Source: Patescibacteria group bacterium | GTDB taxonomy: Bacteria > Patescibacteriota > Minisyncoccia > UBA6257 > 2-01-FULL-56-20 | Assembly (NCBI GenBank): GCA_038063755.1 | Contig: JBBTUL010000011.1 | Location: 71,040-135,039 of the forward strand | DNA: 64,000 nt | Reading direction: 5' to 3' | Part shown: positions 12,479 to 64,000 of the stretch, piece by piece | How the letters are laid out: the number at the start of each line of letters is the position of its first letter | How positions within the stretch are numbered: the stretch's first letter is position 1 | Translations under genes and position numbers: made by a program | The notes under the pieces: generated by a model | Seen by the model: only the letters and a program-made list of their open reading frames with translations | Told to the model about the DNA's origin: nothing | Database searches by the model: none

Positions 12479-12524
12479 CCTACCTGTCGCACAATCATCA
12501 TTTTGCGACAGGTAGGGTCTTTTA
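12479..12524 (+). terminator. rho-independent terminator
   Basis: CCTACCTGTCGCA ... TGCGACAGGTAGG is a 13-bp stem, followed by GTCTTTT. Confidence 0.6.
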
Positions 12525-21837: not shown

Positions 21838-22484
21838 TTCTTTATGGCGCTATGATTTCCCGATACAAGTACTCTTGGAACGTCCCAGCTTTTCTTGCTT
21901 CTTCCCGGAAAAAATTTCTCCGGACGAGTATAGGTGGAAAATGAACCATTGACACTCTCGAGAGATTCGAGCTTTCCGAGAAATCCTGGTAAAAAACGAC
22001 TCGTTGATTCTGCAAGTACCAACGCAGCCAACTCGCCTCCCGAAAGAACATACTCACCAATAGAGATCTCCTCGTCAGCAATGTATTCTGCGACTCGCTC
22101 ATCGACGCCTTCGTATCTGCCGCAGATACAAACAATTCGTTCGTACTTTGAAAGTCGTTCCGCGTACGAGCTAGTAAGCTTCTTTCCCCGAGTGCTGAAA
22201 AGCAAAACCTTCGTCTTCTTCTTTCCTTTTGAAAGAATCGACGAAACTGCGCGAAAAATTGGGTCCACCTGGAGAACCATCCCGGGACCCCCACCAAATG
22301 GTCGATCATCGACTTTTTTGTGTCTTTCTCTTGAAAAATCACGGATATTATGGACAAAAACCTTTACGGTTCCCTCCATCCTTGCACGCCGAAATAAAGA
22401 TTCGTTAAGATAAGAATCAAAAATTCTTGGAAAAATAGTAAGAAAATGAAACTCGACTTGCCTAGCCTTTTTCTTTTCTTTCAT
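21819..22484 (-). CDS. trmD: tRNA (guanine37-N1)-methyltransferase
   Basis: FHFLTIFP ... DDRPFGGGPGMVLQVDPI ... SIGEYVLSGGE. Confidence 0.9.
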   Translation of the reverse strand: MKEKKKARQVEFHFLTIFPRIFDSYLNESLFRRARMEGTVKVFVHNIRDFSRERHKKVDDRPFGGGPGMVLQVDPIFRAVSSILSKGKKKTKVLLFSTRGKKLTSSYAERLSKYERIVCICGRYEGVDERVAEYIADEEISIGEYVLSGGELAALVLAESTSRFLPGFLGKLESLESVNGSFSTYTRPEKFFPGRSKKSWDVPRVLVSGNHSAIKKWRARK

Positions 22485-22492
22485 GGGTTTAT

Positions 22493-24427
22493 CTACTCTT
22501 CGTCGTGCGTTATCTCAGCTTTATGAAGTGATTCTGCTATTGCCTTTCTCAGGTCTGCAATGTTAACTCCGTCCTTTTTTCTTTCCGCTCTTTGTTTCTC
22601 TGGCACTGACCTTTCCGAAAGATCCTTGAGCGAAAGAGTTTTTTCGGTACTGCTTTGCTGCGATGCCCTTGCTTCTACTTCAATTCTTGGGACAAAAGAT
22701 CTTTTTCTCTGTTGAAACTGAAGCTCCGATCGCTCTGGGCGCTTCGGAAAGTCTTTATTCTGAATTTCCTGCGGAGCTTTTCGAGACACTGCCTCCTCGG
22801 GCTGCTCCGTCCTTTCCTCTGTCGGATGAAGAATCTTTGTTTTTTCTTCACCGCCTCCCTCGAACTCGATCCCGAGACTCGCAAGATCAGCAGAAAACTG
22901 TTTCTGATTAACGCTGACCTTCGGGGAGGAAGATCTCGATGCAGGCATAATTGTCCCCTCTTTTATCCCGGCGAGACATTCTCGGCAGTATACGGGCTTC
23001 CCGGGTATGGGCTCAAAAGGAACGGTTGTTTCTCTCCCGCAAGATGAGCAAATTGCCGAGAAAGACTCTCCGCTTCTCGGAGTGCTCGCTCGCGACATAA
23101 TTGTTTCTCCCTCTCCTCCCCTCGGAACCATTCCGGCCCATCGATTAATTTCGTCCTCAATGACTTCCCGGGGGCGAGCGTATCTTTCCCTTGACTGCTC
23201 AATAATTTCCTGCGCAGTCGATGCGTCCTCTACTCCTTTTATGGGCGGTAATGTTTTCGCGGAAAACGGCCTTGAGGCAACCCCGTCGCATAAAAGTTTC
23301 AAATAAATATGATAGTTCGGAAGGTTTACGATGTCTTGGATAGTAAACTCCGGCTCAAACTCGCTTTCGAGAAACTCCGCATCGGCAGCCCCGACACGAA
23401 AGATGATCATCGTTCCTGCGTTTCCAAAAATTGCGTCTCTTACTTTTGTAGAAACATCCGTAACAAGTTGTCCTATATATTGATGCGCCAGTATCAGATC
23501 AAGTCGATATTTTCTTGCTTCAGATAAAACACTCGCAAATGAATCCGTTGCGAAGTTTTGAAATTCATCGACGTAGAGATAGAAGTCGACGCGCTCGTCC
23601 TCCGGAATACGGACGCGCTCCATCGAGGCAAGTTGAATTTTCGTAATAAGCATCGCTCCCAAAAGCGCGGAGTTATCCTCCCCAATGCGCCCCTTGGAGA
23701 CATTTACCAAAAAAATCTTTCCTTCGTTCATAATGTTAAATATGTCCATCGTGCTTTTCGATTGTCCGACGACGTTTCTCACGATTGCGGTTGAAAGAAA
23801 TTGACCAACCTTGTTTTGAATAGGCGCTATGGCTTCGTTTCTGAACTTGTCTTGCCACGCCTCATACTCGTGAATCCAAAAAGCCTTTACCACTGGATCT
23901 TTAATGTTATTCACAATGGTCTGCCGAAATTCTTTATCGACCAAAATGCGAGTGATACCAAGGAGCGTTGAGCCGGGTGTGTCGAGAAGCGCAAGGATTG
24001 CGTTGTTTAAAATGTATTCCATTCTCGCCGACCAGACATTTGACCAAATTTTCGTAAAAATTCCCATAAGACCTGAAGCAACCAAATGCTTGTATTTCGG
24101 GTCTGGCAGTTCAAGCACATTAAAGCCAATGTGATAATCGATGTCAGCTGGATTGAAATATACGACATCCTTTACGCGCTCCTTCGGGATTTTCGAAAGA
24201 ACTCCCTCAATAAGCTCTCCGTGCGGGTCAACGACACACACGCCTTCGCCGTTTGCGATATCTTGAATAATAAGATTGCTTAAAAAAGCGGACTTTCCGG
24301 TACCGGTCTTTCCGATAACATACATGTGCTGCCTTCGATCGTTTCTTTTGATGCCAAAAATCCGATCGGCGTTACGAAAATCGGTTTTCGCAAAATATAC
24401 GACATCTCTGTCCGGTCTATCAATCAT
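22493..24427 (-). CDS. soluble VirD4/TraD/TraG-like (T4CP-like) P-loop ATPase with C-terminal zinc ribbon and a long charged tail (T4CP-like-1)
   Basis: Walker A HMYVIGKTGTGKS, Walker B FYLYVDEFQNF, and the AHQYIGQL coupling-protein motif. No N-terminal TM. C-terminal ribbon CSSCGRETTVPFEPIPGKPVYCREC, followed by a ~170-aa E/K/R/S-rich low-complexity tail. Confidence 0.75.
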   Translation of the reverse strand: MIDRPDRDVVYFAKTDFRNADRIFGIKRNDRRQHMYVIGKTGTGKSAFLSNLIIQDIANGEGVCVVDPHGELIEGVLSKIPKERVKDVVYFNPADIDYHIGFNVLELPDPKYKHLVASGLMGIFTKIWSNVWSARMEYILNNAILALLDTPGSTLLGITRILVDKEFRQTIVNNIKDPVVKAFWIHEYEAWQDKFRNEAIAPIQNKVGQFLSTAIVRNVVGQSKSTMDIFNIMNEGKIFLVNVSKGRIGEDNSALLGAMLITKIQLASMERVRIPEDERVDFYLYVDEFQNFATDSFASVLSEARKYRLDLILAHQYIGQLVTDVSTKVRDAIFGNAGTMIIFRVGAADAEFLESEFEPEFTIQDIVNLPNYHIYLKLLCDGVASRPFSAKTLPPIKGVEDASTAQEIIEQSRERYARPREVIEDEINRWAGMVPRGGEGETIMSRASTPRSGESFSAICSSCGRETTVPFEPIPGKPVYCRECLAGIKEGTIMPASRSSSPKVSVNQKQFSADLASLGIEFEGGGEEKTKILHPTEERTEQPEEAVSRKAPQEIQNKDFPKRPERSELQFQQRKRSFVPRIEVEARASQQSSTEKTLSLKDLSERSVPEKQRAERKKDGVNIADLRKAIAESLHKAEITHDEE

Positions 24428-24487
24428 GTCTCTTTATTATACGTTATATTTGCCCCTTCATATAGCATTTTTCACGCTTCTAGCAAC

Positions 24488-26263
24488 CTATCGAGTTTCA
24501 GCCAAAAAACACGACTCACAGTAAACAATTGCCTCTTTCTCATTCGAAAATGTGGTCTCGAATGAGTTCTCACACCTCTTGGATCCGTGAGAATGAATTG
24601 TGTTATTTTTATACTTTCCCGACTCTCCTCCTTCGCACATACAAAATCCCTTCTGCCATCGGGGAGGGTTCCTCTTTGCTGTTCGCGCAGAATGCCGACA
24701 AGGAAAACAGCTTCTTGGAAGGGCAAGATTGAAGCGCTTGTAAAAACCAAGTTCTGCGGATGCAATTTGATAGGCTCGCTTGCAGGAAGCGCATCCGATA
24801 ACCTCTTTAAGAATTTCGTCGGATGTGTCGCTGATGTGGTCTGATAGCTCCTCAGCTCGAACCGTTATTTCAAAGTCGCGCAGATTCGGATCCTGCCACC
24901 CGAAACCCGTTTTTAACGCTTCTTCTTTCGCAAGTGGAAGAAGATCAAGCGCCATTGTTTCGTTGTATGCGTATGGGGAAAACTCCGGAGGAAAAAACTC
25001 GCCGTACCCGTAACTCTTCCCCCTGGCATCAACGTACGGCATCTCCTTCATGTGTTTTTTGAGTAGTGAAACCTTCTTCTGATACTCCTCTTTCGAATAC
25101 TGTTTATTAAAAATGCAATACTGCGCGCTTCTAAGGCCAATGCACGCGAAACAGTTCGAGGAAGAGTGACACTCGATACAATATTCAAGCTCGGTACAAC
25201 CAGGCCAGCATTCGATGCAAAATTTCAAGCGGTTTGATTCGTTGCCACAGGTAACGCATTCATATATAAGCTCGGTTGAATCACCCCAATTGGTGAAGTC
25301 GTATGATTCGCTTGTTCCCGCAAGAATGCTTTGGGAATACTTTACGTTCTCTACCCCTATTGCCTCATAGCAGTATTTTGCGTTTTTGGAATTATACACG
25401 TACTCACCAATTACATTTTCATTCTGGGACCCGTGAAAAAACTTCTCGGGAAACTGCTTGTCCATACTCATCATGCGTTCTTTCATCTTCCGAACTACTT
25501 CGTACGAACCGAGGTCAAACTTTTTGATTTCTCGCTCATATTCTTCCTTTGTATATGGCTTGTTGAAAATATAATATTTCTTATGCAGAAGATTCACGCA
25601 ACCAAAGCAGTCCGAACAATCGTCGCATCGTACGAGAAAGGCAGAGTTTTGACACCCTTCACAGTCGTAGGAGAAAAACGTTTTGTAACAACTTGCGACG
25701 AGAGAAACCTCGCTGCAAAGCTCCAGTTTTCCCGATTGGAAAAAATCCACTGAATCCTTCACATCCATAAAGGTAACGCCATAAAGCGAGTTTTCTCCAC
25801 GACCTCCATTGAAGCAAAGATAGCAATTTTTTAGGTCCCCGGACTGATCGCAATAATCGCTGTTTGAGAGTCTGAGGATAGACCGTGAAGCCCGAGGAAC
25901 TTTTTTGATAAACTCCCGGAATTGCGCAAAAAACGGTCTTGAAAGATCGCACTCTTCCCCAAAAGACAGGGGGTCCCATGAGTCAGACCACCACCGAGGA
26001 TGGTCGTAGACTTGAATCGGAGCTGACCTTGGAAAACTCGAAAATATTTCTTCTTTTGTAACGGCATCGACATTCCGAAATAATTGGTGGTCATTTCTGA
26101 AACACATCCTCCTCTGCATTCTGCACTCCGGACACCGCGTCGGTGGTGGAACATCCATCTTCTTGTAGAAATCGAAGTCTTCGGACTCAATAACAAAGTC
26201 CTTGCTGCAGTTTTGACAGACTTGTCCTGAGCTTGCCGAAGGGTTTTTGGTTTCGTGATTCAT
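24488..26263 (-). CDS. cysteine-rich zinc-ribbon-flanked family protein, paralog B
   Basis: CQNCSKDFVIESEDFDFYKKMDVPPPTRCPECR N-ribbon. The second N-ribbon Cys are lost (RNVDAVTKEEIFSSFPRS). Central YCIECHSSSNCFACIGLRSAQYCIFNKQYSKEEY. C-terminus AIVYCESCF. Confidence 0.8.
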   Translation of the reverse strand: MNHETKNPSASSGQVCQNCSKDFVIESEDFDFYKKMDVPPPTRCPECRMQRRMCFRNDHQLFRNVDAVTKEEIFSSFPRSAPIQVYDHPRWWSDSWDPLSFGEECDLSRPFFAQFREFIKKVPRASRSILRLSNSDYCDQSGDLKNCYLCFNGGRGENSLYGVTFMDVKDSVDFFQSGKLELCSEVSLVASCYKTFFSYDCEGCQNSAFLVRCDDCSDCFGCVNLLHKKYYIFNKPYTKEEYEREIKKFDLGSYEVVRKMKERMMSMDKQFPEKFFHGSQNENVIGEYVYNSKNAKYCYEAIGVENVKYSQSILAGTSESYDFTNWGDSTELIYECVTCGNESNRLKFCIECWPGCTELEYCIECHSSSNCFACIGLRSAQYCIFNKQYSKEEYQKKVSLLKKHMKEMPYVDARGKSYGYGEFFPPEFSPYAYNETMALDLLPLAKEEALKTGFGWQDPNLRDFEITVRAEELSDHISDTSDEILKEVIGCASCKRAYQIASAELGFYKRFNLALPRSCFPCRHSARTAKRNPPRWQKGFCMCEGGESGKYKNNTIHSHGSKRCENSFETTFSNEKEAIVYCESCFLAETR

Positions 26264-26290
26264 GAAGGACTATTTACTTTGGTCCAATCG

Positions 26291-28099
26291 TTACGCCGTC
26301 TCTGCCTGAAAACATCCTTCACAATAAACGATATCGGGAAGCGCCTTGTCATATGGAGACTCGAATGTATTCGTACAGCTTGATGACGATTCGTGGGCTT
26401 GATGCAGGGCGATGTTTTTATAGCCACCATCTAACGACACGTCCCCTCTACACTGACATTCTCGAGTATAGAGCTTTGCCGGAAGACGCTGTTTAATACG
26501 TTCGAAGTGGCGTGAATTGTAACAACGACGAGGGATTGGCAATCCGAACCTTTTATAGAATTCGAGTTCTTGTGGGATGATGCGAAAAACTCCCGTGCAG
26601 TTGTGCAGGATGGCCTCTTCGGAATCTTCATCCCAAGATCGGCATCGGATTGTTTGTCCGAGAAGGTCATCCGTGGCGTCCTCTATGGAATCCGGAACAT
26701 CTTGCCATCGCAGTGTCGCTTCGTGCTTTTTTCCCTCAGGTTTCTTCCATATCAGATGCTGTTCGGCAGCGGCATGTTCGGATAGTGGAAAGTTTTCTTG
26801 CGCGAGCGTGTGGTTATAGGGATAGGGAGAAAATTCCGCCGGGAAAAACTCGCCGTATGGGTACCGTAGCCCATTTGCGTCAACATACGGCATTGTATTC
26901 ATGTGCTCAATAACGCGTTCCCGGAGCGCGAAATACTCTTCCTTCGAATATTGCTTGTTCAAAATACAATACTCTCTCTTCTTAACTCCGGCACATCCGA
27001 AAAGATTTGAGGAATTACTACAATAGAGTGCGTATTCAAGATTCTTGTTTTCGGGCCAGCATTCCCAACAGAAGCGACAGTTATATATCCCCAAGCCACT
27101 TGCGACCGCTTCATAGACCAATTCGGCGTTATCTCCCCAGACGGTATAGTCGTAGCACTGCCTCGTGGGAGGCGTTAGTATGTACTGACAGTAACGACTG
27201 TCTTCAAGGCCAAGCGCAAGATAGCAATTTTCGGCATTTTTTGATTGATAGACATACGATCCCGAAGCATTTACGTTTTTGTTGTTTGCCGCATATTTAT
27301 TCGGAAACTTCAGCCAGAACTCGGCGCTTTTCTTCTTGAACTCTTCGATCTTTCCATAGGAGTTGAGAGCGAATTCCTTTACTCGTCTCTCGTATTCCTC
27401 CTTGGTGTAGGGTTCGTTGAAGATATGATATTTCTTGTTCTTTAAATTCACGCAACCGAAGCAGTCATGGCAACCAATACATTGTTTTGAGAACCACATA
27501 TCGTACGATCCGTTACAGCGCGTTGAAAAAAAGCACTTCGAACAGTCGGCGGAAAACGAAAGCTCGTAGCAGAATTCGCTACTATCCATATGTGAAAAAT
27601 CTATGCAGTTCTTTCCGTTATTAACCCCATTTCCGTACATGCAATCTTCGGCATAATTTCCGTTGAAAACGAGGTAGCAATTTTTAAACCCGGTATAATT
27701 GTTGGAATAGTCACTGTTTGTTCCATACACAACCGAAAGCGAGTAAATCGGCACCGCTTTCCAGAGGTCATAAAGCTGTGCAAGAAACGGCTTTGAAAAA
27801 TCGACCTCGCGCCCGAAAGACATCGGATCGATGGTGTCCCCGAAAAACAATTCATTCTCGACGATTTTTTGGCGGGAATCCGGAGGGAACATTGAAAATA
27901 TTTCCTTGCCCGAAACTTCGCTTTTTCGCTTATATAGGAAGCGCTCGTTTCTAAATGCCATCCTCCGCATCATCCTGCAGGCCGGACACCGCGTCGGTGG
28001 TGGAACATCCATCTTCTTGTAGAAATCGAAATCGACCGGCTCAAGAGCGAAATCCTGGTGACAACTCTCGCAGATGCGGTGTTCTATTGCGTCTGTCAC
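26291..28099 (-). CDS. cysteine-rich zinc-ribbon-flanked family protein, paralog C
   Basis: CESCHQDFALEPVDFDFYKKMDVPPPTRCPACR. Central CIGCHDCFGCVNLKNKKYHIFNEPYTKEEYE and FGCAGVKKREYCILNKQYSKEEY. C-terminus GVFRIIPQELEFYKRFGLPIPRRC ... PDIVYCEGCF. Sits in tandem with B. Confidence 0.8.
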   Translation of the reverse strand: MTDAIEHRICESCHQDFALEPVDFDFYKKMDVPPPTRCPACRMMRRMAFRNERFLYKRKSEVSGKEIFSMFPPDSRQKIVENELFFGDTIDPMSFGREVDFSKPFLAQLYDLWKAVPIYSLSVVYGTNSDYSNNYTGFKNCYLVFNGNYAEDCMYGNGVNNGKNCIDFSHMDSSEFCYELSFSADCSKCFFSTRCNGSYDMWFSKQCIGCHDCFGCVNLKNKKYHIFNEPYTKEEYERRVKEFALNSYGKIEEFKKKSAEFWLKFPNKYAANNKNVNASGSYVYQSKNAENCYLALGLEDSRYCQYILTPPTRQCYDYTVWGDNAELVYEAVASGLGIYNCRFCWECWPENKNLEYALYCSNSSNLFGCAGVKKREYCILNKQYSKEEYFALRERVIEHMNTMPYVDANGLRYPYGEFFPAEFSPYPYNHTLAQENFPLSEHAAAEQHLIWKKPEGKKHEATLRWQDVPDSIEDATDDLLGQTIRCRSWDEDSEEAILHNCTGVFRIIPQELEFYKRFGLPIPRRCYNSRHFERIKQRLPAKLYTRECQCRGDVSLDGGYKNIALHQAHESSSSCTNTFESPYDKALPDIVYCEGCFQAETA

Positions 28100-50600: not shown

Positions 50601-50655
50601 GGTCGTGTTTGTCCCGCCCACAGGCGGGATCCTCGATTTTGTCTATTCGCTACGC

Positions 50656-57560: not shown

Positions 57561-59312
57561 CTATGCTACTTCTGCATTGTAGCAACCTTCACAATACACG
57601 ATCTCGGGGCGACCGGGGGCGTAGGAGGTTTTGAATTCTGCGAAGCAAGAAGTATTCCCGTGTGAGTGAGGGATGGTATTTTTGTACACGCCGCTTGTCG
57701 ATTGCGGACCACCACAGTCGCAACTTCGCTTCCATAACCTCGGAGGATTCACTCTTTTAAACCGCGCATAATAGCGACAATTCGGACATAAAACCGGAAG
57801 AGGAACACCAAACCTCCGATAAAGCTGAAGTTCTGCGGGAACGATTCGAAAGGCGGCTGTGCATTTTTCTCCGCACCCACCATCATGACTACAACCGATC
57901 ACCTCATTTACAATGTCATCCTGAACCTCGGTTATCAAGTCAGGAAGCTCTGCGGGCTTCTTCGTTATCGCGTAATTCTTTTTTTCATCATCCTTCCAGC
58001 GCTCTCCATGTCGCAACGCTTCGTCTTTTGAAACGGGAAACCAATCAAGGGCCGCGGATTCGTTGTACGCAAACGGACTAAGCTTGTTCGGAAAAAACTC
58101 GCCATATTCCCCCGTTCGTTTCATATGTTCAGCGATCTTCGCTCTCAATGTCTCAAACTCTTCCTTTGAATATTTTTTATTCAAAATCGCGTAGGAGGCA
58201 TGCTTCAGTCCCGCTGAACCAAACACGTTCGTGCACGAATGACAGTTATTTGAGTACTCCGCATCAACGCATTTCCAGCAAAATACCGTAAACTTATTTC
58301 CCCGAGAGTTATCGGGCGTAACAGATTCATAGCACAACTCCGGGTTTCCGGTGTAAATACAGTCGTACGAATCTTTGGCTCGATCATTTATGACAATGTA
58401 GGATGAATTCTCGATTGGCGAGAAACAGTAAAAGCACTGTTTTGCCGATTTTGCCTCAAGAAGAAAGAACCCCGAGGAGTTGGTTGTTTTGGGGGCGTGT
58501 GTGTACCTTCGCGGAAACTGCAGACTAAATTCACTAAACATTTTTTTGTTCGCTTCGATGCCCGCACGACTTCCGAGATTCAACTTCGCAAGCTCTTTCT
58601 CGTACTCGTCCTTAGCGTACTGTCTGTTAAGGATGCAATATCGCTTGTTTCGCAAACCGACACATAAAACACAGTCAGAGCATCCTCTAAGATCGAACCC
58701 GAACACGCAATTGTTTGAGTCAAAACAAAGTTCACAATATTTGCAGTTATAACACTTATCGCAGTTAATGCTTTCGTACATCAATTCGGAATTATTTACA
58801 TTCCATGCGTCCATAATGTCCTTCGCATGATTCACGATGTACATATAAAGGCCGTTTTCGACGTACCAACCACAAGCCCCAAGATAACAGTTTTTACTAA
58901 ATGCCCAATCGTAGGTATATTCGCAATTCACACTACCAACACCATCGTCGTTCATACTCGATATTGCCGGCACCTTATTCATGAGTTCCTGAAGTTGATC
59001 AAAGAATGGACGTGAAAAATCAAAATCACGCCCATATGAGGCCGGATCCCATCCGTCAGACCACCAGCACCTTACGCAATAGACCGGAAATTCTGTATCG
59101 GGTGGATACATTCCAATCATATCCTTCCTGCACAAATCACACTTGCGGCGATAAAACGTCCGCTCGTTGCGAAATCTTAGCCGACGTTTCAGGCGACACT
59201 CCGGGCACCAGGTCGGATACGGAACGTCTATCTTTTTATAGAAATCGAAATCTTCGGATTCGATCGTGAAATCCTTATGGCAGTTTTGACAAACCTTGAT
59301 TTCACTACTCAT
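57561..59312 (-). CDS. cysteine-rich zinc-ribbon-flanked family protein, paralog F
   Basis: CQNCHKDFTIESEDFDFYKKIDVPYPTWCPECR, then RKCDLCRK...VYCVRCW. Central FGFDLRGCSDCVLCVGLRNKRYCILNRQYAKDEYE. C-terminus AAFRIVPAELQLYRRFGVPLPVLCPNCRY ... PEIVYCEGCYNAEVA. Confidence 0.8.
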   Translation of the reverse strand: MSSEIKVCQNCHKDFTIESEDFDFYKKIDVPYPTWCPECRLKRRLRFRNERTFYRRKCDLCRKDMIGMYPPDTEFPVYCVRCWWSDGWDPASYGRDFDFSRPFFDQLQELMNKVPAISSMNDDGVGSVNCEYTYDWAFSKNCYLGACGWYVENGLYMYIVNHAKDIMDAWNVNNSELMYESINCDKCYNCKYCELCFDSNNCVFGFDLRGCSDCVLCVGLRNKRYCILNRQYAKDEYEKELAKLNLGSRAGIEANKKMFSEFSLQFPRRYTHAPKTTNSSGFFLLEAKSAKQCFYCFSPIENSSYIVINDRAKDSYDCIYTGNPELCYESVTPDNSRGNKFTVFCWKCVDAEYSNNCHSCTNVFGSAGLKHASYAILNKKYSKEEFETLRAKIAEHMKRTGEYGEFFPNKLSPFAYNESAALDWFPVSKDEALRHGERWKDDEKKNYAITKKPAELPDLITEVQDDIVNEVIGCSHDGGCGEKCTAAFRIVPAELQLYRRFGVPLPVLCPNCRYYARFKRVNPPRLWKRSCDCGGPQSTSGVYKNTIPHSHGNTSCFAEFKTSYAPGRPEIVYCEGCYNAEVA

Positions 59313-59352
59313 GAGTTTTTACATTCCGCGTTCAGCTATTTACGCTTTACCC

Positions 59353-60801
59353 TCAAATAAGCGGCTCCGGAGGAAGATTCGACTGTATCGCCGAATGACC
59401 CTTCCCTTCGATAATTGCCTTTTCCTGCGCACTCCGAATAATAGTCGACTCTTCCTCTGCAATAAGTCGTCGCGCGTCATCAGCCGGAATAGAATATTTT
59501 TCTCGCGACTGAGCAAGGATTTCGGGCTTAAACGAACGATGTGGAGGATCAAGAACGGCCAGCGTTTCGGCAGAGAAAGGATCGTACGACTCTCCATCAA
59601 TCGTCATTTTAATATAAAATTCCCGCATCCCAAGATTGATCATGTCTTTTACGTCGAAGATCGGAGCCATTTCTGGTTTAAGCGTCACGGCATCATCCCC
59701 TCCCACGCGAAAGATCACAATACTCCCTACGTTTCCCAAAACCGCTGCTTGAACGCGCGGCAGGAGCTGTCCCATATATTGGTGCGCAACGGTAAGTGCT
59801 AAGCCGTACTTTCTGGCCTCCGAGAGAATATTCTCGAATGTCTCAGTAACCAAGTTTTGAAACTCGTCGACATAAAGATAAAAATCGTGACGCTCGGATT
59901 CGGGCAAGGCAGCGCGAGCCATACCAGCCTGCTTGATCTTGGTAATGAACATCGAACCGAAAAAACTTGAGTTCTCTTCTCCAAGCCTCCCTTTAGAAAG
60001 ATTGATCAAGATAATCTTCTTTTGCTGAATAAGCTCCTCAAGTTTTATTTTGTTCCCTTTTTGTCCGAAAATATTTCGCAGTGTTGGATCTGAAAGAAAC
60101 TGTCCGAGCTTGTTTACGAGCGGAATAATCGCGTCGGTATCGAACTTTTCGGACCAATCCGCAAATTCGATCGCCCAGAAACGCTTTACCATGTCGTCTT
60201 CGATGTATTCGACGACCTTCTGGCGATAGTTCCGGTCAGTAAGCATAGAAATCATACCTCGCATGGTGGCGTGCGGGTAATCAAGGAGCGCTAAAACCGT
60301 GAATCGAAAAACGTGCTCAAGACGCGGCGTCCAGTTCGCGCCAAACTGTTTTTCCATTACTTCAATCAGGCCCTGAGTGAGCTGATGCTTAAACAATGGA
60401 TCAACATTTGCAAGCGGATTGAAAGATGCCGGAAACGCGTGATCTGATGGGTCTATAACGACTACATCCCCTATCCGATTCTCGGGAATGAAATCAAGCG
60501 TCGCTTCGACAACGTCTCCGTGCGGATCAATGAGGCAAAGACCGTATCCTTGCGCAATGTCTTGGCGCATCATAAGTTCAAGCAGCTTCGTCTTTCCAAC
60601 GCCGCTTTTTCCAATTATGTACATATGACGTCGCCGATCTTTCCGTTTGATGCCAAAAATGAAACGTTTCTCTTCAAGCGCCGCAACGTAATTCGTTCTT
60701 CCGATAAAAGAAACTTCGCTCGTGTCTACTTTGCCGTATATCGGCAAATCCGTCGGGGGCGGAGCATATTTGATTATCTGTATTCGATTCGCCTTTGGCA
60801 T
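59353..60801 (-). CDS. soluble VirD4/TraD/TraG-like (T4CP-like) P-loop ATPase (T4CP-like-2)
   Basis: HMYIIGKSGVGKT Walker A, FYLYVDEFQNL Walker B, AHQYMGQLL. The N-terminal region is alignable with T4CP-like-1 (FGIKR.DRR.HMY.IGK). ATGA start/stop overlap with the upstream gene. Confidence 0.75.
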   Translation of the reverse strand: MPKANRIQIIKYAPPPTDLPIYGKVDTSEVSFIGRTNYVAALEEKRFIFGIKRKDRRRHMYIIGKSGVGKTKLLELMMRQDIAQGYGLCLIDPHGDVVEATLDFIPENRIGDVVVIDPSDHAFPASFNPLANVDPLFKHQLTQGLIEVMEKQFGANWTPRLEHVFRFTVLALLDYPHATMRGMISMLTDRNYRQKVVEYIEDDMVKRFWAIEFADWSEKFDTDAIIPLVNKLGQFLSDPTLRNIFGQKGNKIKLEELIQQKKIILINLSKGRLGEENSSFFGSMFITKIKQAGMARAALPESERHDFYLYVDEFQNLVTETFENILSEARKYGLALTVAHQYMGQLLPRVQAAVLGNVGSIVIFRVGGDDAVTLKPEMAPIFDVKDMINLGMREFYIKMTIDGESYDPFSAETLAVLDPPHRSFKPEILAQSREKYSIPADDARRLIAEEESTIIRSAQEKAIIEGKGHSAIQSNLPPEPLI

Positions 60802-61304
60802 CAGATTGCTTCGATTTCCTTCAAAAATGCTTCGTAATCGCCAATTGTCTCCTTGGCATCATCTTGAGAAACAGCAAACCCTGGACTGTGGACAAGATCA
60901 TTGCGAACGCGATGAGCTCGCCAAATACGCGGAAACGACTTCAGTTCATCTGAGGTAAGTCGGGCAAGTCTATCCGCGAAATGTTCTCCAGGAAGGCCGA
61001 GCTGTTTTAAAATGTCGTCTACAAGTCCATCGGCATCGATTATCGCAAATTTTACAGCATCGAGAGATCCGCCTTCGAGGCGCTTCGTGATTTCACTCCA
61101 ACGCTCTGCGATAACGGCGCTTCTCAATGTTCTCTTTCTCTTGTGCTTGGCCGGGTTAAAAACAAAATTTGGTCTGAACTTTAAGAGGCCGGAAATTGAG
61201 AAAACCAAAATCACGACAAGCCCAACATCAAAGACAATAAAGACGATTTTTAAAAAAATAAAGAATCCGCTAAATCCCTCGAAAAAACTTTGAAGTCCTT
61301 GCAT
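60801..61304 (-). CDS. TM-anchored protein with a HEPN-like Rx4-6H motif
   Basis: N-terminal TM helices (FFIFLKIVFIVFDVGLVVILVFSISGLL). C-terminal helical domain with RAHRVRNDLVHSPGF (R-N-x3-H). Confidence 0.5.
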   Translation of the reverse strand: MQGLQSFFEGFSGFFIFLKIVFIVFDVGLVVILVFSISGLLKFRPNFVFNPAKHKRKRTLRSAVIAERWSEITKRLEGGSLDAVKFAIIDADGLVDDILKQLGLPGEHFADRLARLTSDELKSFPRIWRAHRVRNDLVHSPGFAVSQDDAKETIGDYEAFLKEIEAI

Positions 61305-61321
61305 GTGTCTCTATGAGATTC

Positions 61322-62686
61322 TTAATTAAATCGATCCATTGCTCCTTCCTCGCCGTAGATCGGAAGTCCGGCAGGCGGGCCAGCCTTTCGGCTGACGACG
61401 CGCTTAATATGAGGTGCGGTGAGCACCAAAAATGTCGGTGGATGAAATAACGATGAAAGGCAACGGATGTTCATGGGGAAGCTCTTCGCTCCAAAATTCC
61501 ATCCGAAAAGATACGAAGTCATAAGTTTTGAGGTAAACATCTTCGATGGAAGTCGAGGACTCCGGTAGCTCGAAAGCATTCTTTGTTTTCGGTAACGAAC
61601 ACGATACTTTGAGAATATATGAGGCCAGTCCCAAATTTGTCCGCGCGTTTCGACTCCCGGTGTGTTTTTTCGAAATGAGTTCAGGTTGACGGCCGCATAC
61701 TGGTTGAAAGCTCCGCTAATTCCTCTTCTGGGGAAGTTTTCCAAGAATATTTCCTTCGGAGATATGTACATGATGCGAATTCTCGTCTCGAATGCGGGAA
61801 AAGAAAGATTTTCTTCGATAGCCTTCAGGACATCTGTTTCTCCTGGCGTACGCTGCAGTAAGGCACGGCCAAGCGCTTGTTCCTGGCTTGTTGCCTCTGC
61901 GACTTTTTTGACGACGCTGAATGCCGGAAGAATTCCACCCGGAAACTCCGCGGCGGTTCCAACGCTTGATCCTCCTCCTTTTTTCACCCGAAGCATTTTT
62001 TCCTTTCGATCTTTTAGGCTGTCGATTAGTCCTTCAAACTGCACGCTCCAATCAGGACCGAGGGCAGCAACAATAATCTGGATGCCGACAAACTCTCCGG
62101 GCTTTGCTTTTCCCAGGACTTCAAGAAACGCGGAAATCGGATCATATTGCTTGTCTTCGTCGGGAGACTCAAAGTCAAGGTAAGTTTTTATCGGATACGC
62201 AGCGCTCTTCGCCAAAATAAGTTCTGTTCCCCATAGCTCATACCCTCGCTCGTACACCTCTCCCATGTTCCGAGGAAGCGAGTCGAGATATTCTTCCGGC
62301 TGTGTTATCTCGATATCGGGGTAGTAAGAAAAAAACGCCGCCTCGACCAGCTCCTTGTGCTTCTTTGGGGTCCTTACATAAAAATGAATCTCACCGCCAT
62401 GACTTACCATTTCGAATGTAAACCACAGAGTAACTTCTCCCTCCCAGTACCATTCTTTTAGGTTTCCCGGAGCGTTTCTGAGGGAGTGTATCGCGGAAAA
62501 AATTTGTTCCATGCCCTTCGGGCTTTTCTTGATTTCTCTTGGAATATGAAGTTCGAGGAGAACGAACGGGATTCTCCCTTTATATTCTTCTTGACGCCAC
62601 GACATCCACGCGTTCCTGGCGATTGGGAAAAAAATCACAAACACGATGATCCACCAAATGGAAGCGATGAAGTCAAGCAAAAACAT
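61322..62686 (-). CDS. hypothetical membrane protein (454 aa, N-terminal TM then large soluble domain)
   Basis: N-terminal TM IASIWWIIVFVIFFPIA. No NTP-binding motif. Tightly linked upstream of the HEPN-like gene and T4CP-like-2. Confidence 0.55.
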   Translation of the reverse strand: MFLLDFIASIWWIIVFVIFFPIARNAWMSWRQEEYKGRIPFVLLELHIPREIKKSPKGMEQIFSAIHSLRNAPGNLKEWYWEGEVTLWFTFEMVSHGGEIHFYVRTPKKHKELVEAAFFSYYPDIEITQPEEYLDSLPRNMGEVYERGYELWGTELILAKSAAYPIKTYLDFESPDEDKQYDPISAFLEVLGKAKPGEFVGIQIIVAALGPDWSVQFEGLIDSLKDRKEKMLRVKKGGGSSVGTAAEFPGGILPAFSVVKKVAEATSQEQALGRALLQRTPGETDVLKAIEENLSFPAFETRIRIMYISPKEIFLENFPRRGISGAFNQYAAVNLNSFRKNTPGVETRGQIWDWPHIFSKYRVRYRKQRMLSSYRSPRLPSKMFTSKLMTSYLFGWNFGAKSFPMNIRCLSSLFHPPTFLVLTAPHIKRVVSRKAGPPAGLPIYGEEGAMDRFN

Positions 62687-62732
62687 TTGTCATTATTATA
62701 CCATCGTCAGCCTTGTTGTGTGAACGCAGAAA

Positions 62733-62768
62733 ACACAAAAAGCCCCGTTCCGGGGCTTTTTGTTTTGT
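62733..62768. terminator. palindromic, probably bidirectional, rho-independent terminator
   Basis: AAAAA-GCCCCG-ttc-CGGGGC-TTTTTGTTTT, immediately downstream of the sigma-R4 HTH gene stop. Confidence 0.6.
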
Positions 62769-62770
62769 GT

Positions 62771-63811
62771 CTACGCTTCCTTGATGTCGTATGCACCGTC
62801 TTCCTTTCTCGTAAAGTGCTCTCGATTCTGAAGATTAACAAGAATGGTGTTGTTCTTGAAGAGTCGCTCCTTCTGCACGGCAAGCACGACCTCATTTGAC
62901 CTCAAGGGTCCATGTTTTTTAAGAATTTTCATTATGATCTCCCTCGCCGTTCCCGGTTCATATCCGTGTTCCGAAAGACCATAGATACCCCGCCCAACAA
63001 GCACGAAACGAGAATCCTTGATAAGCTCGTTGTGCACCGTTGAGGCAATGGCAACCTTCATGTCAAAACGAGCGTTATTGATAAGACTTGCGATGTCCTC
63101 GAAATGAACCGGTTCCTGATTCCTCTTCATCACCGCGTAGATTCGATCGCGAATTGTTCTCGGATTGATCTCCGGCCAGTCGGAAAGACCAATATCACCG
63201 AAAGAGTTCTTGTGGATTCTCTTCGAGATGCTCGCGTATTCTGCCGCATGTGCAGGAACTATCTTTTTTTCCTTAATGAAGTTTTTAAATTCGGCTTGGT
63301 ATCCGCCATTTAAGATTTTCGCTTTTTGCGCTTTGAGGGCGCTTGCCCACTGCGCTATAAATGCCTTCGCTTTCTTGAGCGATGGTACGTCGAGGTAATA
63401 AAGTGGAGTAATTTCGTCATCACCATTGTGCTCGTGGAAAGCTTTCGACGAAGCAAGTAAAACGGAAAGGTGATTCTCGTGAAGATCTTCGTATGAACCT
63501 TGAAGATTTCCGACCATCGCTTCTTTTCGAATCACTCCTCCAACGTCCTTGAGGCACTTCTTCCCCTGCTTCAAAACGTCTTGTACAAGCGGATGCGTTA
63601 CCGCAGCATCTCCAATAACCTTAAGCGCGGAGGCCTCGATTTGTCGAACCCTTTCTCGAGTCACCCCAAACCGCTTCCCGATCGCATCAAGAGTTTCTCC
63701 TTCAACTGGTCCATTCTTTCCGATACCAAAACGCCCCGCTACAACCTCTTTTTGGCGATCGGTGAGATTCTTAAATAATTGCTGTAATACCTTCGCTTGA
63801 AATGAACTCAT
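62771..63811 (-). CDS. sigma-70 region 4-type HTH DNA-binding protein with a large uncharacterised C-terminal domain
   Basis: LTDRQKEVVAGRFGI ... ETLDAIGKRFGVTRERVRQIEASALKVI is a typical sigma region 4.2 HTH. The remaining ~270 aa are unassigned. Confidence 0.65.
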   Translation of the reverse strand: MSSFQAKVLQQLFKNLTDRQKEVVAGRFGIGKNGPVEGETLDAIGKRFGVTRERVRQIEASALKVIGDAAVTHPLVQDVLKQGKKCLKDVGGVIRKEAMVGNLQGSYEDLHENHLSVLLASSKAFHEHNGDDEITPLYYLDVPSLKKAKAFIAQWASALKAQKAKILNGGYQAEFKNFIKEKKIVPAHAAEYASISKRIHKNSFGDIGLSDWPEINPRTIRDRIYAVMKRNQEPVHFEDIASLINNARFDMKVAIASTVHNELIKDSRFVLVGRGIYGLSEHGYEPGTAREIIMKILKKHGPLRSNEVVLAVQKERLFKNNTILVNLQNREHFTRKEDGAYDIKEA

Positions 63812-64000
63812 GAATCTTGGCTGTTTGATTTAACGTTTATCATTATAAATCGGCCCTTTTCTATTGTCAAGCCCAGATCACGCAGAAACAAGCTTCTCAC
63901 TACCGAACCTACTTCTTCAGAGAAAGCCTCTGCCAAACCACGAGAAGCGGGCTTGCAACGAAAATTGAGGAATAGACTCCGGTCGTCACGCCGACAAGTA

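What the first reader, a model, noticed from the sequence alone, without database searches (positions are those of the whole stretch)
57561..63811. Five-gene co-directional array: sigma-R4 HTH protein, large membrane protein, TM-HEPN-like protein, T4CP-like ATPase, Cys-rich paralog F
On the minus strand the genes 62771-63811, 61322-62686, 60801-61304, 59353-60801 and 57561-59312 are spaced by 17-nt, ATGA-overlap and 40-nt junctions. A palindromic terminator (62733-62768) separates only the first gene. This looks like one transcription unit. It combines a DNA-binding regulator-like protein, two membrane components, a predicted RNase-type (HEPN) motif and an FtsK/VirD4-class ATPase with the multi-copy Cys-rich protein. 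That composition resembles a secretion/translocation module or a defence/abortive-infection module more than housekeeping. Locus 1 (murD to trmD) lacks the membrane and HEPN-like genes, so locus 2 may be the complete form.
Basis: inference. Interest (0 to 1): 0.78.

Follow-up and report, generated by a model that had tools for sequence, protein, structure and literature searches.

The report
Split coupling-ATPase module with membrane HEPN
This is a chromosomal gene set, kept in the same order in about 80 related ultra-small (Patescibacteria) species, that encodes a conjugation-type "coupling" ATPase split into a membrane-anchor protein and an extremely conserved motor, with a membrane-tethered RNase-like (HEPN) protein encoded between them. 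It looks like a domesticated nucleic-acid translocation machine, not a defence island, and its function has not been described.

Summary
All five ORFs are real. The window comes from a Patescibacteria (Parcubacteria/Paceibacteria-type) MAG.

**The parts**
- In Bacillus plasmid pBM69 and in phage G this domain is fused to the same kind of ATPase. DUF8128 plus the 482-aa ATPase is therefore a split monoderm-type coupling protein (T4CP).

**Conservation in 80 species loci**
- DUF8128 is followed by TM-HEPN in 79/79 loci, and by the ATPase in 65/67.
- The sigma-R4/HARE-HTH gene precedes DUF8128 in 67/75 loci, and SecDF lies upstream in 55/65.
- Cys-rich paralogues follow in variable numbers.
- The ATPase is about 80% identical across species, against 63% for SecD.

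**Wider cluster and transcription**
- In other genomes the cluster continues through the Cys-rich array to the second ATPase, then trmD and comEC.
- The sigma-R4 gene has its own promoter and terminator.

**Verdict.** Defence is unlikely. The best reading is a domesticated membrane nucleic-acid translocation and processing motor, possibly linked to ComEC DNA uptake. The function is not proven.

The parts
63842..63870 (-). Promoter-like site (TTGACA-17-TATAAT, 12/12) upstream of the sigma-R4/HARE-HTH gene
   Evidence: consensus scan only
62771..63811 (-). 346-aa DNA-binding protein: sigma-70 region 4 (res 14-64), a sub-threshold HARE-HTH match (219-281) and a weak winged-helix match (288-339). 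Syntenic neighbour, probably its own transcription unit
   Evidence: HARE-HTH is on record for the Wolfebacteria orthologue; directly upstream of DUF8128 in 67/75 loci
62735..62763 (-). Intrinsic-terminator-like hairpin (13-bp stem, 7 GC pairs, T-run) ending the sigma-R4 unit
   Evidence: strong hairpins sit at the same place in many related loci
62695..62724 (-). Promoter-like site with extended -10 (TTCACA-18-TG-TATAAT, 11/12) in front of the DUF8128 gene
61322..62686 (-). 454-aa DUF8128 protein: one N-terminal TM helix (res 1-28), a soluble domain like the VirB4 N-terminal domain, and a conserved flexible C-tail (FHPPT...GPPAGLPIYGEE). Proposed membrane anchor and N-terminal half of a split coupling protein
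60801..61304 (-). 167-aa membrane-tethered HEPN-domain protein: hydrophobic segment 6-45, a basic stretch, then a HEPN four-helix domain with invariant H131, R134-N135-x3-H139, D92, D96 and R112
59353..60801 (-). 482-aa soluble T4CP-type (FtsK/HerA-superfamily) ATPase: Walker A GKSGVGKT at residue 64, Walker B DE at 312-313, no TM segment. About 80% identical across species. N-terminus carries a PPPxxLPIYG motif
   Evidence: two genes downstream of DUF8128 in 65/67 loci
57561..59312 (-). 583-aa Cys-rich paralogue F (39 Cys, 12 CxxC). It has homologous N- and C-terminal zinc-ribbon modules, no TM segment and no hydrophobic N-terminus. Variable-copy neighbour of the module
24488..28099 (-). Cys-rich paralogues C (26291-28099) and B (24488-26263). 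In other genomes this kind of array lies between the short and the long ATPase
22493..24427 (-). 644-aa long T4CP-type ATPase paralogue (43% identical to the short one) with a C-terminal treble-clef zinc finger (455-485) and a charged tail
19560..22484 (-). trmD (21819-22484), comEC channel domain (20419-21837) and comEC metallo-beta-lactamase domain (19560-20444). They are tightly spaced with the long ATPase and form the conserved tail of the ancestral cluster

Best explanation
**What it is (mostly shown).** This is a chromosomal module inherited in a fixed position in Parcubacteria/Paceibacteria-type Patescibacteria. Its invariant core is three genes.
1. DUF8128, a single-pass membrane protein whose cytoplasmic domain has the fold of the VirB4 N-terminal domain.
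2. A membrane-tethered HEPN-domain protein with an intact RNxxxH motif.
3. A soluble T4CP-type hexameric-ATPase homologue.

DUF8128 and the ATPase are the two halves of a coupling protein. In Bacillus plasmid pBM69 (next to a relaxase and conjugation genes) and in Bacillus phage G the two halves are one ~830-aa polypeptide. In this lineage the gene was split at the linker, the HEPN gene was inserted between the halves, and the system was domesticated.

The sigma-R4/HARE-HTH gene is a conserved upstream neighbour with its own promoter and terminator. The Cys-rich gene belongs to a fluid multi-copy array that usually follows the module. In the ancestral layout the cluster continues through the Cys-rich array to a second, longer T4CP-type ATPase, then trmD and comEC.

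**How it most likely works (inferred).**
- The DUF8128 TM helix and VirB4-NTD-like domain tether a ring of the ATPase to the cytoplasmic face of the membrane.
- The conserved C-tail of DUF8128 and the similar N-terminal PPxxLPIYG peptide of the ATPase act as docking elements.
- As in coupling proteins, the ATPase threads a nucleic-acid substrate at the membrane.
- The HEPN dimer, held at the same membrane face, cuts or senses RNA associated with that traffic.
- Because the paralogous ATPase shares tight junctions with comEC, the most likely process is nucleic-acid import (competence and/or salvage), or another housekeeping DNA or RNA transaction at the membrane.
- Conjugation and defence are the less likely processes.
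For: **ORFs and domains**
- ORFs and Pfam/NCBIfam domains.
- DUF8128 family membership.
- One profile, phrog_5156, covers DUF8128 at positions 78-305 and the ATPase at positions 388-817.

**Structure of DUF8128**
- The AlphaFold model is confident (pLDDT 85.5, pTM 0.81).
- The Foldseek top 10 are all TrwK chains (E 4e-5 to 2e-3).

**Fused relatives**
- Phage G gp156 (825 aa): its C-terminus matches the ATPase (E 6e-29) and its N-terminus matches DUF8128 (hhalign 92%, E 5e-7).
- pBM69 833-aa protein: its C-terminus matches the ATPase (E 1e-21) and its N-terminus matches DUF8128 (94.7%, E 6e-8). A replication-relaxation protein and conjugal transfer genes lie beside it.

**HEPN protein**
- Model pLDDT 90.5.
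- The RNxxxH motif is invariant.

**Conservation**
- 237 relatives were found in species-representative genomes, and 80 loci were analysed.
- In one search, TM-HEPN follows DUF8128 in 79/79 loci and the ATPase follows in 65/67. Sigma-R4 precedes in 67/75 and SecDF lies upstream in 55/65.
- Mean pairwise identity is 79.9% for the ATPase and 62.7% for SecD.

**Context**
- The window is otherwise housekeeping genes with unremarkable GC.
- DUF8128 has no relatives in IMG/VR, phage or plasmid collections.
- The extended order up to trmD-comEC was seen in full in four loci (L006, L031, L050, L068). In three more (L047, L078, L084) the long ATPase directly follows TM-HEPN. It is partial in others.
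- ATPl/trmD junctions overlap or are at most 18 nt in most of these loci (139 nt in L033). ComEC follows ATPl in 8 of the 12 loci with enough flank.

**Literature**
- VirD4-type T4CP homologues occur in 2,918 of 3,035 Patescibacteria genomes (5,713 in all). Only 148 lie near virB4, and the authors raise exaptation (PMC12102498).
- The com genes named as conserved across the Candidate Phyla Radiation (CPR, another name for Patescibacteria) are ComEC, DprA and ComFC, with no ATPase motor among them (PMC10633639).
Against: - No experiment and no expression data bear on this. The substrate (DNA, RNA or protein) is entirely inferred.
- Linkage to comEC passes through trmD, an unrelated housekeeping gene, and the cluster begins with secDF. 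Frozen synteny in small genomes could therefore explain the adjacency without any functional link.
- ComEC was seen within the 10-kb flanks in only 10 of 80 loci. Long Cys-rich arrays often push it beyond the flank.
- In Southlakia epibionticum (a different class) the t4cp homologue was reported as non-essential, and comEC is dispensable for growth (PMC12102498, PMC10633639). That sits uneasily with the extreme conservation seen here.
- A role for a cytoplasmic HEPN RNase in DNA import is not obvious.
- Pairwise-distance correlations between the module proteins and SecD are only about 0.3, so strict co-inheritance is not demonstrated.
- The physical DUF8128-ATPase-HEPN complex was not modelled.
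Confidence: 0.5

Rival explanations
1. **Dedicated protein-export system.** The split T4CP recognises the signal-less Cys-rich paralogues encoded next to it and delivers them to or across the membrane, with SecDF upstream as part of the same export theme. The Cys-rich proteins would be surface, host-interaction or structural subunits.
For: - At least one Cys-rich gene lies within 10 kb downstream in 39/48 loci, often as tandem arrays of 2-5 copies.
- The arrays vary in copy number and order, as substrate or effector families do.
- These proteins have no TM segment and no hydrophobic N-terminus.
- T4CPs are known substrate receptors for proteins as well as DNA (established knowledge).
- The long ATPase carries a treble-clef zinc finger, and the Cys-rich proteins carry a treble-clef-like N-terminus.
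Against: - The invariant CxxC...CxxC zinc-ribbon modules look like cytoplasmic Zn-binding domains.
- No channel component (VirB6- or VirB8-like) lies in the cluster.
- A Cys-rich gene lies within 300 bp of the ATPase in only 15/55 loci, and 9/48 loci have none in 10 kb.
- Cys-rich copies also sit next to Mur ligase genes elsewhere in the window.
- It gives no role to the HEPN protein.
Confidence: 0.17
2. **Ordinary coupling protein encoded in trans.** The module is simply the coupling protein of the Patescibacteria virB4-type T4SS, which is encoded elsewhere near dnaA/dnaN, and it feeds substrates to that machine.
For: - Coupling-protein genes are often encoded far from virB4 (PMC12102498).
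- The ATPase is T4CP-class by profile.
- The fused relatives on pBM69 sit in a conjugation cluster.
- The VirB4-NTD-like fold of DUF8128 could mediate docking onto a VirB4/VirB3/VirB8 platform (inference).
Against: - T4CP homologues are present in 2,918 of 3,035 genomes, but VirB4 in only 2,417, so hundreds of genomes have the ATPase without a T4SS (PMC12102498).
- Only 148 of 5,713 lie near virB4.
- About 80% identity is far above what coupling proteins of conjugative or effector systems show (own knowledge).
- The conserved partners are HEPN and comEC, not T4SS parts.
Confidence: 0.13
3. **Housekeeping role unrelated to import.** Examples are an FtsK-like chromosome-segregation or division motor, or a membrane-bound RNA-processing complex in which the ATPase regulates or feeds the HEPN RNase, by analogy with ATPase-plus-HEPN pairs such as PrrC/RloC or Las1-Grc3.
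For: - The ATPase is conserved more strongly than SecD.
- The module sits at a fixed position among cell-envelope and translation genes.
- The ATPase belongs to the FtsK/HerA superfamily.
- The RNxxxH catalytic motif is invariant.
Against: - No FtsK gamma domain or other FtsK-specific profile was detected.
- The closest homologues are DNA-transfer coupling proteins.
- I could not test whether these genomes lack FtsK or RNase Y.
Confidence: 0.12
4. **Defence or abortive-infection system.** The ATPase senses invading DNA and activates a HEPN RNase toxin.
For: - HEPN RNases and HerA/FtsK-type ATPases are common in defence systems (established knowledge).
- The ATPase gives weak PADLOC hits to mad8 (1.4e-12), DndH and HerA models. 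The sigma-R4 segment matches MzaA.
Against: - No PADLOC model matches DUF8128, the HEPN protein or the Cys-rich protein, and no system is recovered.
- There is no MNT antitoxin partner.
- The module sits at a fixed syntenic position next to secDF in 55/65 species.
- About 80% identity is the opposite of fast-evolving, patchy defence genes.
- GC content is native.
- DUF8128 is absent from viral and plasmid collections.
Confidence: 0.04

Closest known systems
Fused monoderm coupling proteins: the 833-aa 'DUF87 domain-containing protein' of Bacillus methanolicus plasmid pBM69, and Bacillus phage G gp156 (825 aa, PHROG 5156)
   Same: - They have the same two modules in the same order: an N-terminal DUF8128-like domain (hhalign 94.7% and 92.3%) and a C-terminal ATPase homologous to the 482-aa protein (tblastn E 1e-21 and 6e-29).
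- A second VirB4/VirD4-class ATPase lies nearby: gp155 in phage G and an 'ATP-binding protein' in pBM69.
   Different: - Here the two modules are separate genes with a HEPN gene between them.
- The locus is chromosomal, at a fixed position, with no relaxase or conjugation genes.
- The ATPase is about 80% conserved across species.
- The TM helix is at the extreme N-terminus here, whereas in gp156 the hydrophobic stretch is mid-protein.
Canonical T4SS coupling proteins (VirD4 / TrwB / TraD)
   Same: - The ATPase passes Pfam's cut-offs for TrwB_AAD_bind, T4SS-DNA_transf and TraG-D_C.
- Walker A and B motifs are intact.
- The best sequence match among solved structures is TrwB, although it is weak.
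   Different: - The ATPase polypeptide has no N-terminal TM domain.
- NCBIfam TraD/VirD4 scores are far below the curated cut-offs (51.8 vs 366; 47.8 vs 250).
- It is not linked to a relaxase, virB4 or virB6.
VirB4 (TrwK of R388), and stand-alone VirB4-N-terminal-like proteins such as TrsD
   Same: - As in VirB3-VirB4 fusions, it carries an N-terminal membrane helix (own knowledge).
   Different: - No sequence-level similarity to VirB4 was detectable.
- The partner ATPase is T4CP-like rather than VirB4-like by profile.
- Relationship to TrsD was not tested, because no TrsD profile was available.
HEPN RNase toxins (HepT/HEPN-MNT, e.g. SO_3166; Csm6/Csx1 HEPN domains)
   Same: - Invariant R-N-x3-H motif.
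   Different: - It is anchored in the membrane by an N-terminal helix.
- It has no MNT antitoxin or CARF partner.
- It matches no Pfam, NCBIfam or PADLOC HEPN profile.
- It is embedded in a housekeeping-like, strictly conserved operon.
ComB (VirB4-type) and ComFA-dependent DNA uptake with ComEC
   Same: This is a functional analogy only. A VirB4/VirD4-class ATPase set is genetically tied to the ComEC channel. CPR genomes are described as keeping ComEC, DprA and ComFC (PMC10633639).
   Different: - There is no homology to ComFA, which is a DEAD-box helicase (own knowledge).
- No ComB channel components are present.
- The link rests on gene order alone.

Membership tests
Type IV coupling protein (VirD4/TrwB/TraD) | FtsK/HerA-superfamily nucleotide-binding domain with Walker A and B | tested here: met
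   GKSGVGKT at residue 64 and D312-E313 are invariant in 37 species. DUF87 scores 33.1 bits against a 23.2-bit cut-off.
Type IV coupling protein (VirD4/TrwB/TraD) | T4CP-specific profile, including the all-alpha domain region | tested here: met
   Pfam TrwB_AAD_bind 37.2 bits (cut-off 20.5) over residues 54-366. T4SS-DNA_transf 24.1 bits (cut-off 20.1). TraG-D_C 22.9 bits (cut-off 22).
Type IV coupling protein (VirD4/TrwB/TraD) | N-terminal transmembrane domain in the same polypeptide | tested here: not met
   The 482-aa and 644-aa ATPases have no hydrophobic segment. The anchor is presumably supplied in trans by DUF8128 (inference).
Type IV coupling protein (VirD4/TrwB/TraD) | Genetic association with a relaxase and/or T4SS channel genes | tested here: not met
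   No relaxase, VirB4, VirB6 or VirB8 family was found among the window ORFs of 120 aa or more that were scanned, nor in the gene tables of L001 and L003.
Type IV coupling protein (VirD4/TrwB/TraD) | Curated NCBIfam equivalog or subfamily score | tested here: not met
   SXT_TraD 51.8 vs 366; conju_CD1115 47.8 vs 250; conj_TOL_TraD 42.9 vs 647.
VirB4 | VirB4 N-terminal-domain fold | tested here: met
   [not shown]
VirB4 | N-terminal domain and ATPase domain in one polypeptide, matching VirB4 sequence profiles | tested here: not met
   The two parts are separate genes. VirB4-type NCBIfam hits have E 0.003-0.017, far below the cut-offs. There is no PDB sequence match, even with a profile.
HEPN domain RNases | Four-helix HEPN fold | tested here: met
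   [not shown]
HEPN domain RNases | Conserved Rx4-6H motif | tested here: met
   R134-N-D-L-V-H139. R134, N135 and H139 are invariant in 37 sequences.
HEPN domain RNases | Match to a curated HEPN sequence family | tested here: not met
   No Pfam, NCBIfam, PADLOC or PHROG family at E<=0.1, apart from chance-level hits.
HEPN domain RNases | Ribonuclease activity | not testable with these tools
   Needs a biochemical assay of residues ~55-167 with R134A and H139A controls.
Known anti-phage defence systems (PADLOC) | Component proteins match the models of one system; patchy, mobile distribution | tested here: not met
   Only the ATPase gives weak hits (mad8, DndH, HerA), and the sigma-R4 segment matches MzaA. 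The module sits at a fixed position next to secDF in 55/65 species. ATPase identity is 79.9%.
Pfam DUF8128 (PF26449) | Match to the family model | tested here: met
   Precomputed Pfam annotation assigns PF26449.1 to the exact window protein (P0001) and to all 120 listed homologues. The local hmmscan found no family, so the local Pfam copy apparently lacks this model.
Fused monoderm T4CP (pBM69 833-aa protein / phage G gp156 type) | DUF8128-like N-domain and homologous ATPase C-domain | tested here: met
   hhalign 94.7% (E 6e-8) and 92.3% (E 5e-7) for the N-domain. tblastn E 1e-21 and 6e-29 for the ATPase. phrog_5156 covers both.
Fused monoderm T4CP (pBM69 833-aa protein / phage G gp156 type) | Single polypeptide encoded on a plasmid or phage beside transfer genes | tested here: not met
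   Here it is two genes separated by the HEPN gene, in a chromosomal housekeeping context. DUF8128 has no relatives in IMG/VR, phage or PLSDB collections.

The most novel reading that the evidence does not exclude
The DUF8128-HEPN-ATPase trio, the second zinc-finger ATPase and the Cys-rich zinc-ribbon paralogues together form a previously unrecognised nucleic-acid import machine that is near-universal in Paceibacteria. In this reading a conjugation coupling protein was domesticated and run "in reverse" as the missing cytoplasmic motor for ComEC, replacing ComFA. A membrane-tethered HEPN RNase processes incoming or associated RNA, so that these auxotrophic ultra-small cells can take up and salvage host nucleic acids.
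Probability: 0.15. Interest if true: 0.85.

Novelty: new variant of a known kind. Interest (0 to 1): 0.62.

Why it matters
**An open question in the literature.** VirD4-type coupling-protein homologues are reported in 96% of Patescibacteria genomes, at about two per genome, and almost never next to the T4SS. Their role is explicitly left open (PMC12102498).

**What this analysis adds.**
- It gives those orphan ATPases a concrete genomic and structural context. There is a strictly conserved three-gene core: a VirB4-NTD-like anchor, a membrane HEPN protein and the motor.
- It gives them an evolutionary origin, as a split of a fused monoderm coupling protein.
- It places them in a conserved supercluster that ends in comEC.
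- The motor is more conserved than SecD, which points to an important and heavily constrained function in organisms that cannot make their own nucleotides.

**What becomes testable.** The analysis yields defined hypotheses: the complex forms, the HEPN domain has RNase activity, and the machine depends on or feeds ComEC DNA uptake. It also assigns a fold and a partner to Pfam DUF8128, and it identifies a new membrane-anchored HEPN family that no current profile library detects.

Tried and rejected
**Searches that found nothing**
- Sequence searches of DUF8128 against the PDB found nothing meaningful, either as a single sequence or as a profile. Only fold comparison was informative.
- The Cys-rich protein matched no PDB sequence. 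In Pfam it gave only a sub-threshold treble-clef hit.
- An ATPase profile against PDB sequences matched only the Walker A region.
- The exhaustive representative search with the DUF8128 profile found 2,546 clusters. The 150 listed are all 180-590 aa, so no fusions or other phyla could be seen. Ten of the more distant ones still come from Parcubacteria-group MAGs or carry no name.
- Rfam found nothing real in 56-64 kb. A sub-threshold Thr_leader hit falls on the terminator hairpin.
- Literature searches for DUF8128, for Cys-rich Parcubacteria paralogues and for HEPN with VirB4 found nothing relevant.

**Tests that were negative or inconclusive**
- The Embleya plasmid 812-aa T4CP showed no significant DUF8128-like N-domain.
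- Pairwise-distance correlation with SecD, used as a test of vertical co-inheritance, gave only about 0.3 and was not used as evidence.
- Ordering the Cys-rich paralogues by orthology failed. Most assignments are ambiguous, so I dropped the idea that each paralogue holds a conserved slot.

**Not available**
- The afdb50 fold library was unavailable.

**Readings rejected**
- VirB6/TrbL/TcpH-type channel for the 454-aa protein, because it has a single TM helix and a VirB4-NTD fold.
- Mobile defence island.

Full report
**1. Observation**

The five minus-strand ORFs exist exactly as described.
- Junctions are 84 nt, 17 nt, a 1-nt overlap and 40 nt. The overlap reads TGATG, not ATGA.
- The hairpin at 62763..62735 is a strong terminator-like element, with a 13-bp stem followed by a T-run.
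- It is followed at once by an extended -10 promoter-like site (62724..62695), 8 nt upstream of the ATG of the 454-aa gene.
- The first gene has a perfect TTGACA-17-TATAAT site at 63870..63842.
- Strong hairpins lie after the orthologous first gene in many related loci.

On consensus evidence the array is therefore one gene plus four genes, not one unit. Co-directionality is not informative, because nearly every gene of the window is on the minus strand. GC content in the region is unremarkable.

**2. Source and context**

The 454-aa protein is identical to a protein of a Patescibacteria MAG (NCBI AAB495_03070; assembly GCA_964357965.1).
- The rest of the window is housekeeping: Mur ligases, FtsW, MurG, GltX, Tgt, QueA, UvrB, DinB, an AddA-like helicase-nuclease, RmuC, TrmD and ComEC.
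- Beyond the window end, SecD and SecF lie directly upstream of the first gene.

**3. The proteins**

*(a) 346-aa protein.*
- Sigma-70 region 4 at residues 14-64 scores 49.5 bits against a 24.1-bit cut-off.
- A HARE-HTH match at 219-281 falls just below Pfam's cut-off.
- There is a weak winged-helix match at 288-339.
- Pfam lists HARE-HTH for the Wolfebacteria orthologue.

*(b) 454-aa protein.*
- Precomputed Pfam annotation places it in DUF8128 (PF26449).
- It has one hydrophobic segment (residues 1-28) and no Walker A motif.
- A 60-sequence alignment gave a confident AlphaFold model (pLDDT 85.5, pTM 0.81).
- No P-loop proteins appear, and the protein has no Walker motif. I therefore infer that the match is to the VirB4 N-terminal domain.
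- Foldseek independently ranks ten TrwK chains first.

*(c) 167-aa protein.*
- It has a hydrophobic N-terminus (6-45), then a basic stretch (KHKRKRTLR), then a helical domain.
- H131, R134, N135 and H139 (the RNDLVH motif) are invariant in 37 homologues.
- By the positive-inside rule the HEPN domain faces the cytoplasm (inference).
- No sequence library recognises this protein.

*(d) 482-aa protein.*
- It is a soluble T4CP-class ATPase, matching TrwB_AAD_bind, DUF87, T4SS-DNA_transf and TraG-D_C above Pfam's cut-offs.
- Its Walker motifs are intact.

*(e) 583-aa protein.*
- It has 39 Cys and 12 CxxC motifs, and no TM segment.
- Its N- and C-terminal zinc-ribbon modules are homologous to each other, and two repeats lie between them.
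- The family has more than 4,400 members and no Pfam domain.

**4. DUF8128 and the ATPase are two halves of one protein**

- PHROG 5156, an 824-position profile, matches DUF8128 at positions 78-305 and the ATPase at positions 388-817.
- Bacillus phage G gp156 (825 aa) has the ATPase at its C-terminus (E 6e-29) and a DUF8128-like N-terminus (hhalign 92%, E 5e-7). Its neighbour gp155 is annotated VirB-like.
- The 833-aa "DUF87" protein of B. methanolicus plasmid pBM69 has the same architecture: ATPase at E 1e-21, N-domain at 94.7% and E 6e-8. It sits beside a replication-relaxation protein, conjugal transfer proteins and another ATPase.

The fused form is therefore the coupling protein of a monoderm conjugation-type system. 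The form in this window is split at the linker. Consistent with that, the conserved but poorly modelled C-tail of DUF8128 (…FHPPT…GPPAGLPIYGEE) resembles the N-terminus of the ATPase (…APPPTDLPIYGKV).

**5. Conservation**

A scan of one genome per species found 237 relatives of DUF8128. The 80 best loci, all Patescibacteria MAGs, were analysed with the window proteins as queries.

| Relationship | Loci |
|---|---|
| TM-HEPN directly follows DUF8128 | 79/79 |
| An ATPase comes next (62 short form, 3 long form) | 65/67 |
| Sigma-R4 gene directly precedes DUF8128 | 67/75 |
| SecD-SecF lie upstream | 55/65 |
| Cys-rich gene within 1.5 kb of the ATPase | 36/55 |
| At least one Cys-rich gene within 10 kb downstream (up to five) | 39/48 |

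The order and orthology of the Cys-rich copies are not conserved.

Mean pairwise identity over 45 species:

| Protein | Mean pairwise identity |
|---|---|
| ATPase (short form) | 79.9% |
| SecD | 62.7% |
| DUF8128 | 52.4% |
| Sigma-R4 protein | 45.9% |
| TM-HEPN | 36.9% |

DUF8128 has no relatives in IMG/VR, in GenBank phages or in PLSDB plasmids.

**6. The larger cluster**

Adding the window's TrmD and ComEC proteins as queries showed a longer conserved order: SecD-SecF-sigmaR4-DUF8128-HEPN-ATPase-[Cys-rich × n]-long ATPase-TrmD-ComEC-ComEC(MBL).
- The full order is present in L006, L031, L050 and L068.
- In L047, L078 and L084 the long ATPase directly follows HEPN.
- The order is partial in L012, L033, L061 and L055.
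- ATPl/trmD junctions overlap or are at most 18 nt in most of these loci (139 nt in L033). ComEC follows ATPl in 8 of the 12 loci with enough flank.
- ComEC also stays nearby in two rearranged layouts, L013 and L054.

In the window, Cys C, Cys B, the long ATPase, trmD, comEC and the MBL gene (28099..19560) form the same tail with tight junctions.

**7. Literature**

- A phylum-wide survey found 5,713 VirD4-type T4CP homologues in 2,918 of 3,035 Patescibacteria genomes. Only 148 lie near virB4, and VirB4 itself is present in 2,417 genomes. The authors could not exclude exaptation (PMC12102498).
- About two copies per genome fits the short and long ATPases found here (inference).
- That paper does not describe DUF8128 or a HEPN partner, and a full-text search for DUF8128 found nothing.
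- The com genes said to be conserved across the Candidate Phyla Radiation (CPR, another name for Patescibacteria) are ComEC, DprA and ComFC (PMC10633639).

**8. Interpretation**

*Shown:*
- the identity and folds of the parts;
- the split-fusion relationship between DUF8128 and the ATPase;
- the strict three-gene core;
- the extreme conservation of the motor;
- the chromosomal housekeeping context;
- the conserved extension of the cluster to comEC.

*Inferred:*
- DUF8128 tethers a ring of the ATPase to the membrane;
- the HEPN protein acts with that ring;
- the substrate is nucleic acid;
- the process is import with ComEC.

Rivals are export of the Cys-rich proteins, an in-trans coupling protein for the virB4 T4SS, another housekeeping role, and defence. 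Defence is the weakest: no PADLOC system matches, there is no antitoxin, the position is fixed, and evolution is slow.

**9. Verdict**

The module is a new variant of a known kind: a domesticated, split coupling protein with a new membrane HEPN partner. Its function is unproven but can now be tested.

Noticed in passing
window 9378-11150, 24488-26263, 26291-28099, 48861-50621, 50731-52452, 57561-59312 (all minus strand): Six paralogues (35-45% identical) of a ~580-aa Cys-rich protein family with no Pfam domain and more than 4,400 database relatives, all from Patescibacteria-type MAGs. The N-terminal module (CxxC...FxIExEDFDFYKK...CPxCR) recurs near the C-terminus, and two internal repeats end in LRNKKYCIxNKQYxKEEY. 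Two copies sit directly beside Mur ligase genes. Fold and function are unknown.
   Followed up: partly
window 19560-24427 (minus strand): The long T4CP-type ATPase, trmD, comEC (Competence + DUF4131) and a separate metallo-beta-lactamase ORF are spaced by 8 nt, then by 19-nt and 26-nt overlaps. ComEC is therefore split into channel and nuclease-like ORFs, and it appears to be co-operonic with a coupling-type ATPase. The same arrangement recurs in at least seven other species.
   Followed up: partly
window 22493-24427, residues 455-485 and 490-644 of the product: The long ATPase ends in a treble-clef zinc finger (Pfam zf_Tbcl_2, 53.9 bits; CSSCGRETTVPFEPIPGKPVYCRECL), followed by a ~150-residue charged, low-complexity tail. 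The PVYCxxC signature also recurs in the Cys-rich paralogues.
   Followed up: no
window 61322-61420 (C-tail of DUF8128) and 60730-60801 (N-terminus of the ATPase): The two proteins share a short linear motif: GPPAGLPIYGEE at the conserved, low-confidence C-tail of DUF8128, and APPPTDLPIYGKV at the start of the ATPase. It may be a docking peptide left at both sides of the split. The long ATPase lacks it.
   Followed up: no
L001 3568-4941 (same contig, about 5 kb beyond the window end, upstream of SecD): A reverse transcriptase (RVT_1, 336 aa) lies divergent from a bAvd-family protein (116 aa). This looks like a diversity-generating retroelement next to the cluster.
   Followed up: no
L085 (Bacillus phage G 87999-97294), gp155-gp156: Jumbo phage G encodes a VirB-like ATPase (gp155), a fused DUF8128-ATPase (gp156, 825 aa) and an HNH endonuclease side by side. 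SPO1-like Bacillus phages carry related ATPases (gp27.4). Their role in the phages is unknown.
   Followed up: partly
L086 (Sulfitobacter mediterraneus plasmid NZ_CP081110.1, 99994-101181): A lone 395-aa ATPase, 37.6% identical to the window ATPase (E 8e-78), is flanked by transposases on an alphaproteobacterial plasmid. It is much closer than any other non-Patescibacteria hit and may be a horizontal transfer.
   Followed up: no
window 2-1705 (+), 7236-8006 (-), 12522-12947 (-), 41728-42429 (-): These ORFs of 141-567 aa have no Pfam family at E<=1e-4. The 567-aa ORF runs off the window start.
   Followed up: no
whole window: About 47 of the 52 substantial ORFs are on the minus strand, and GC skew is negative almost throughout (cumulative -1.97). 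This fits a single replichore with strong leading-strand gene bias.
   Followed up: no
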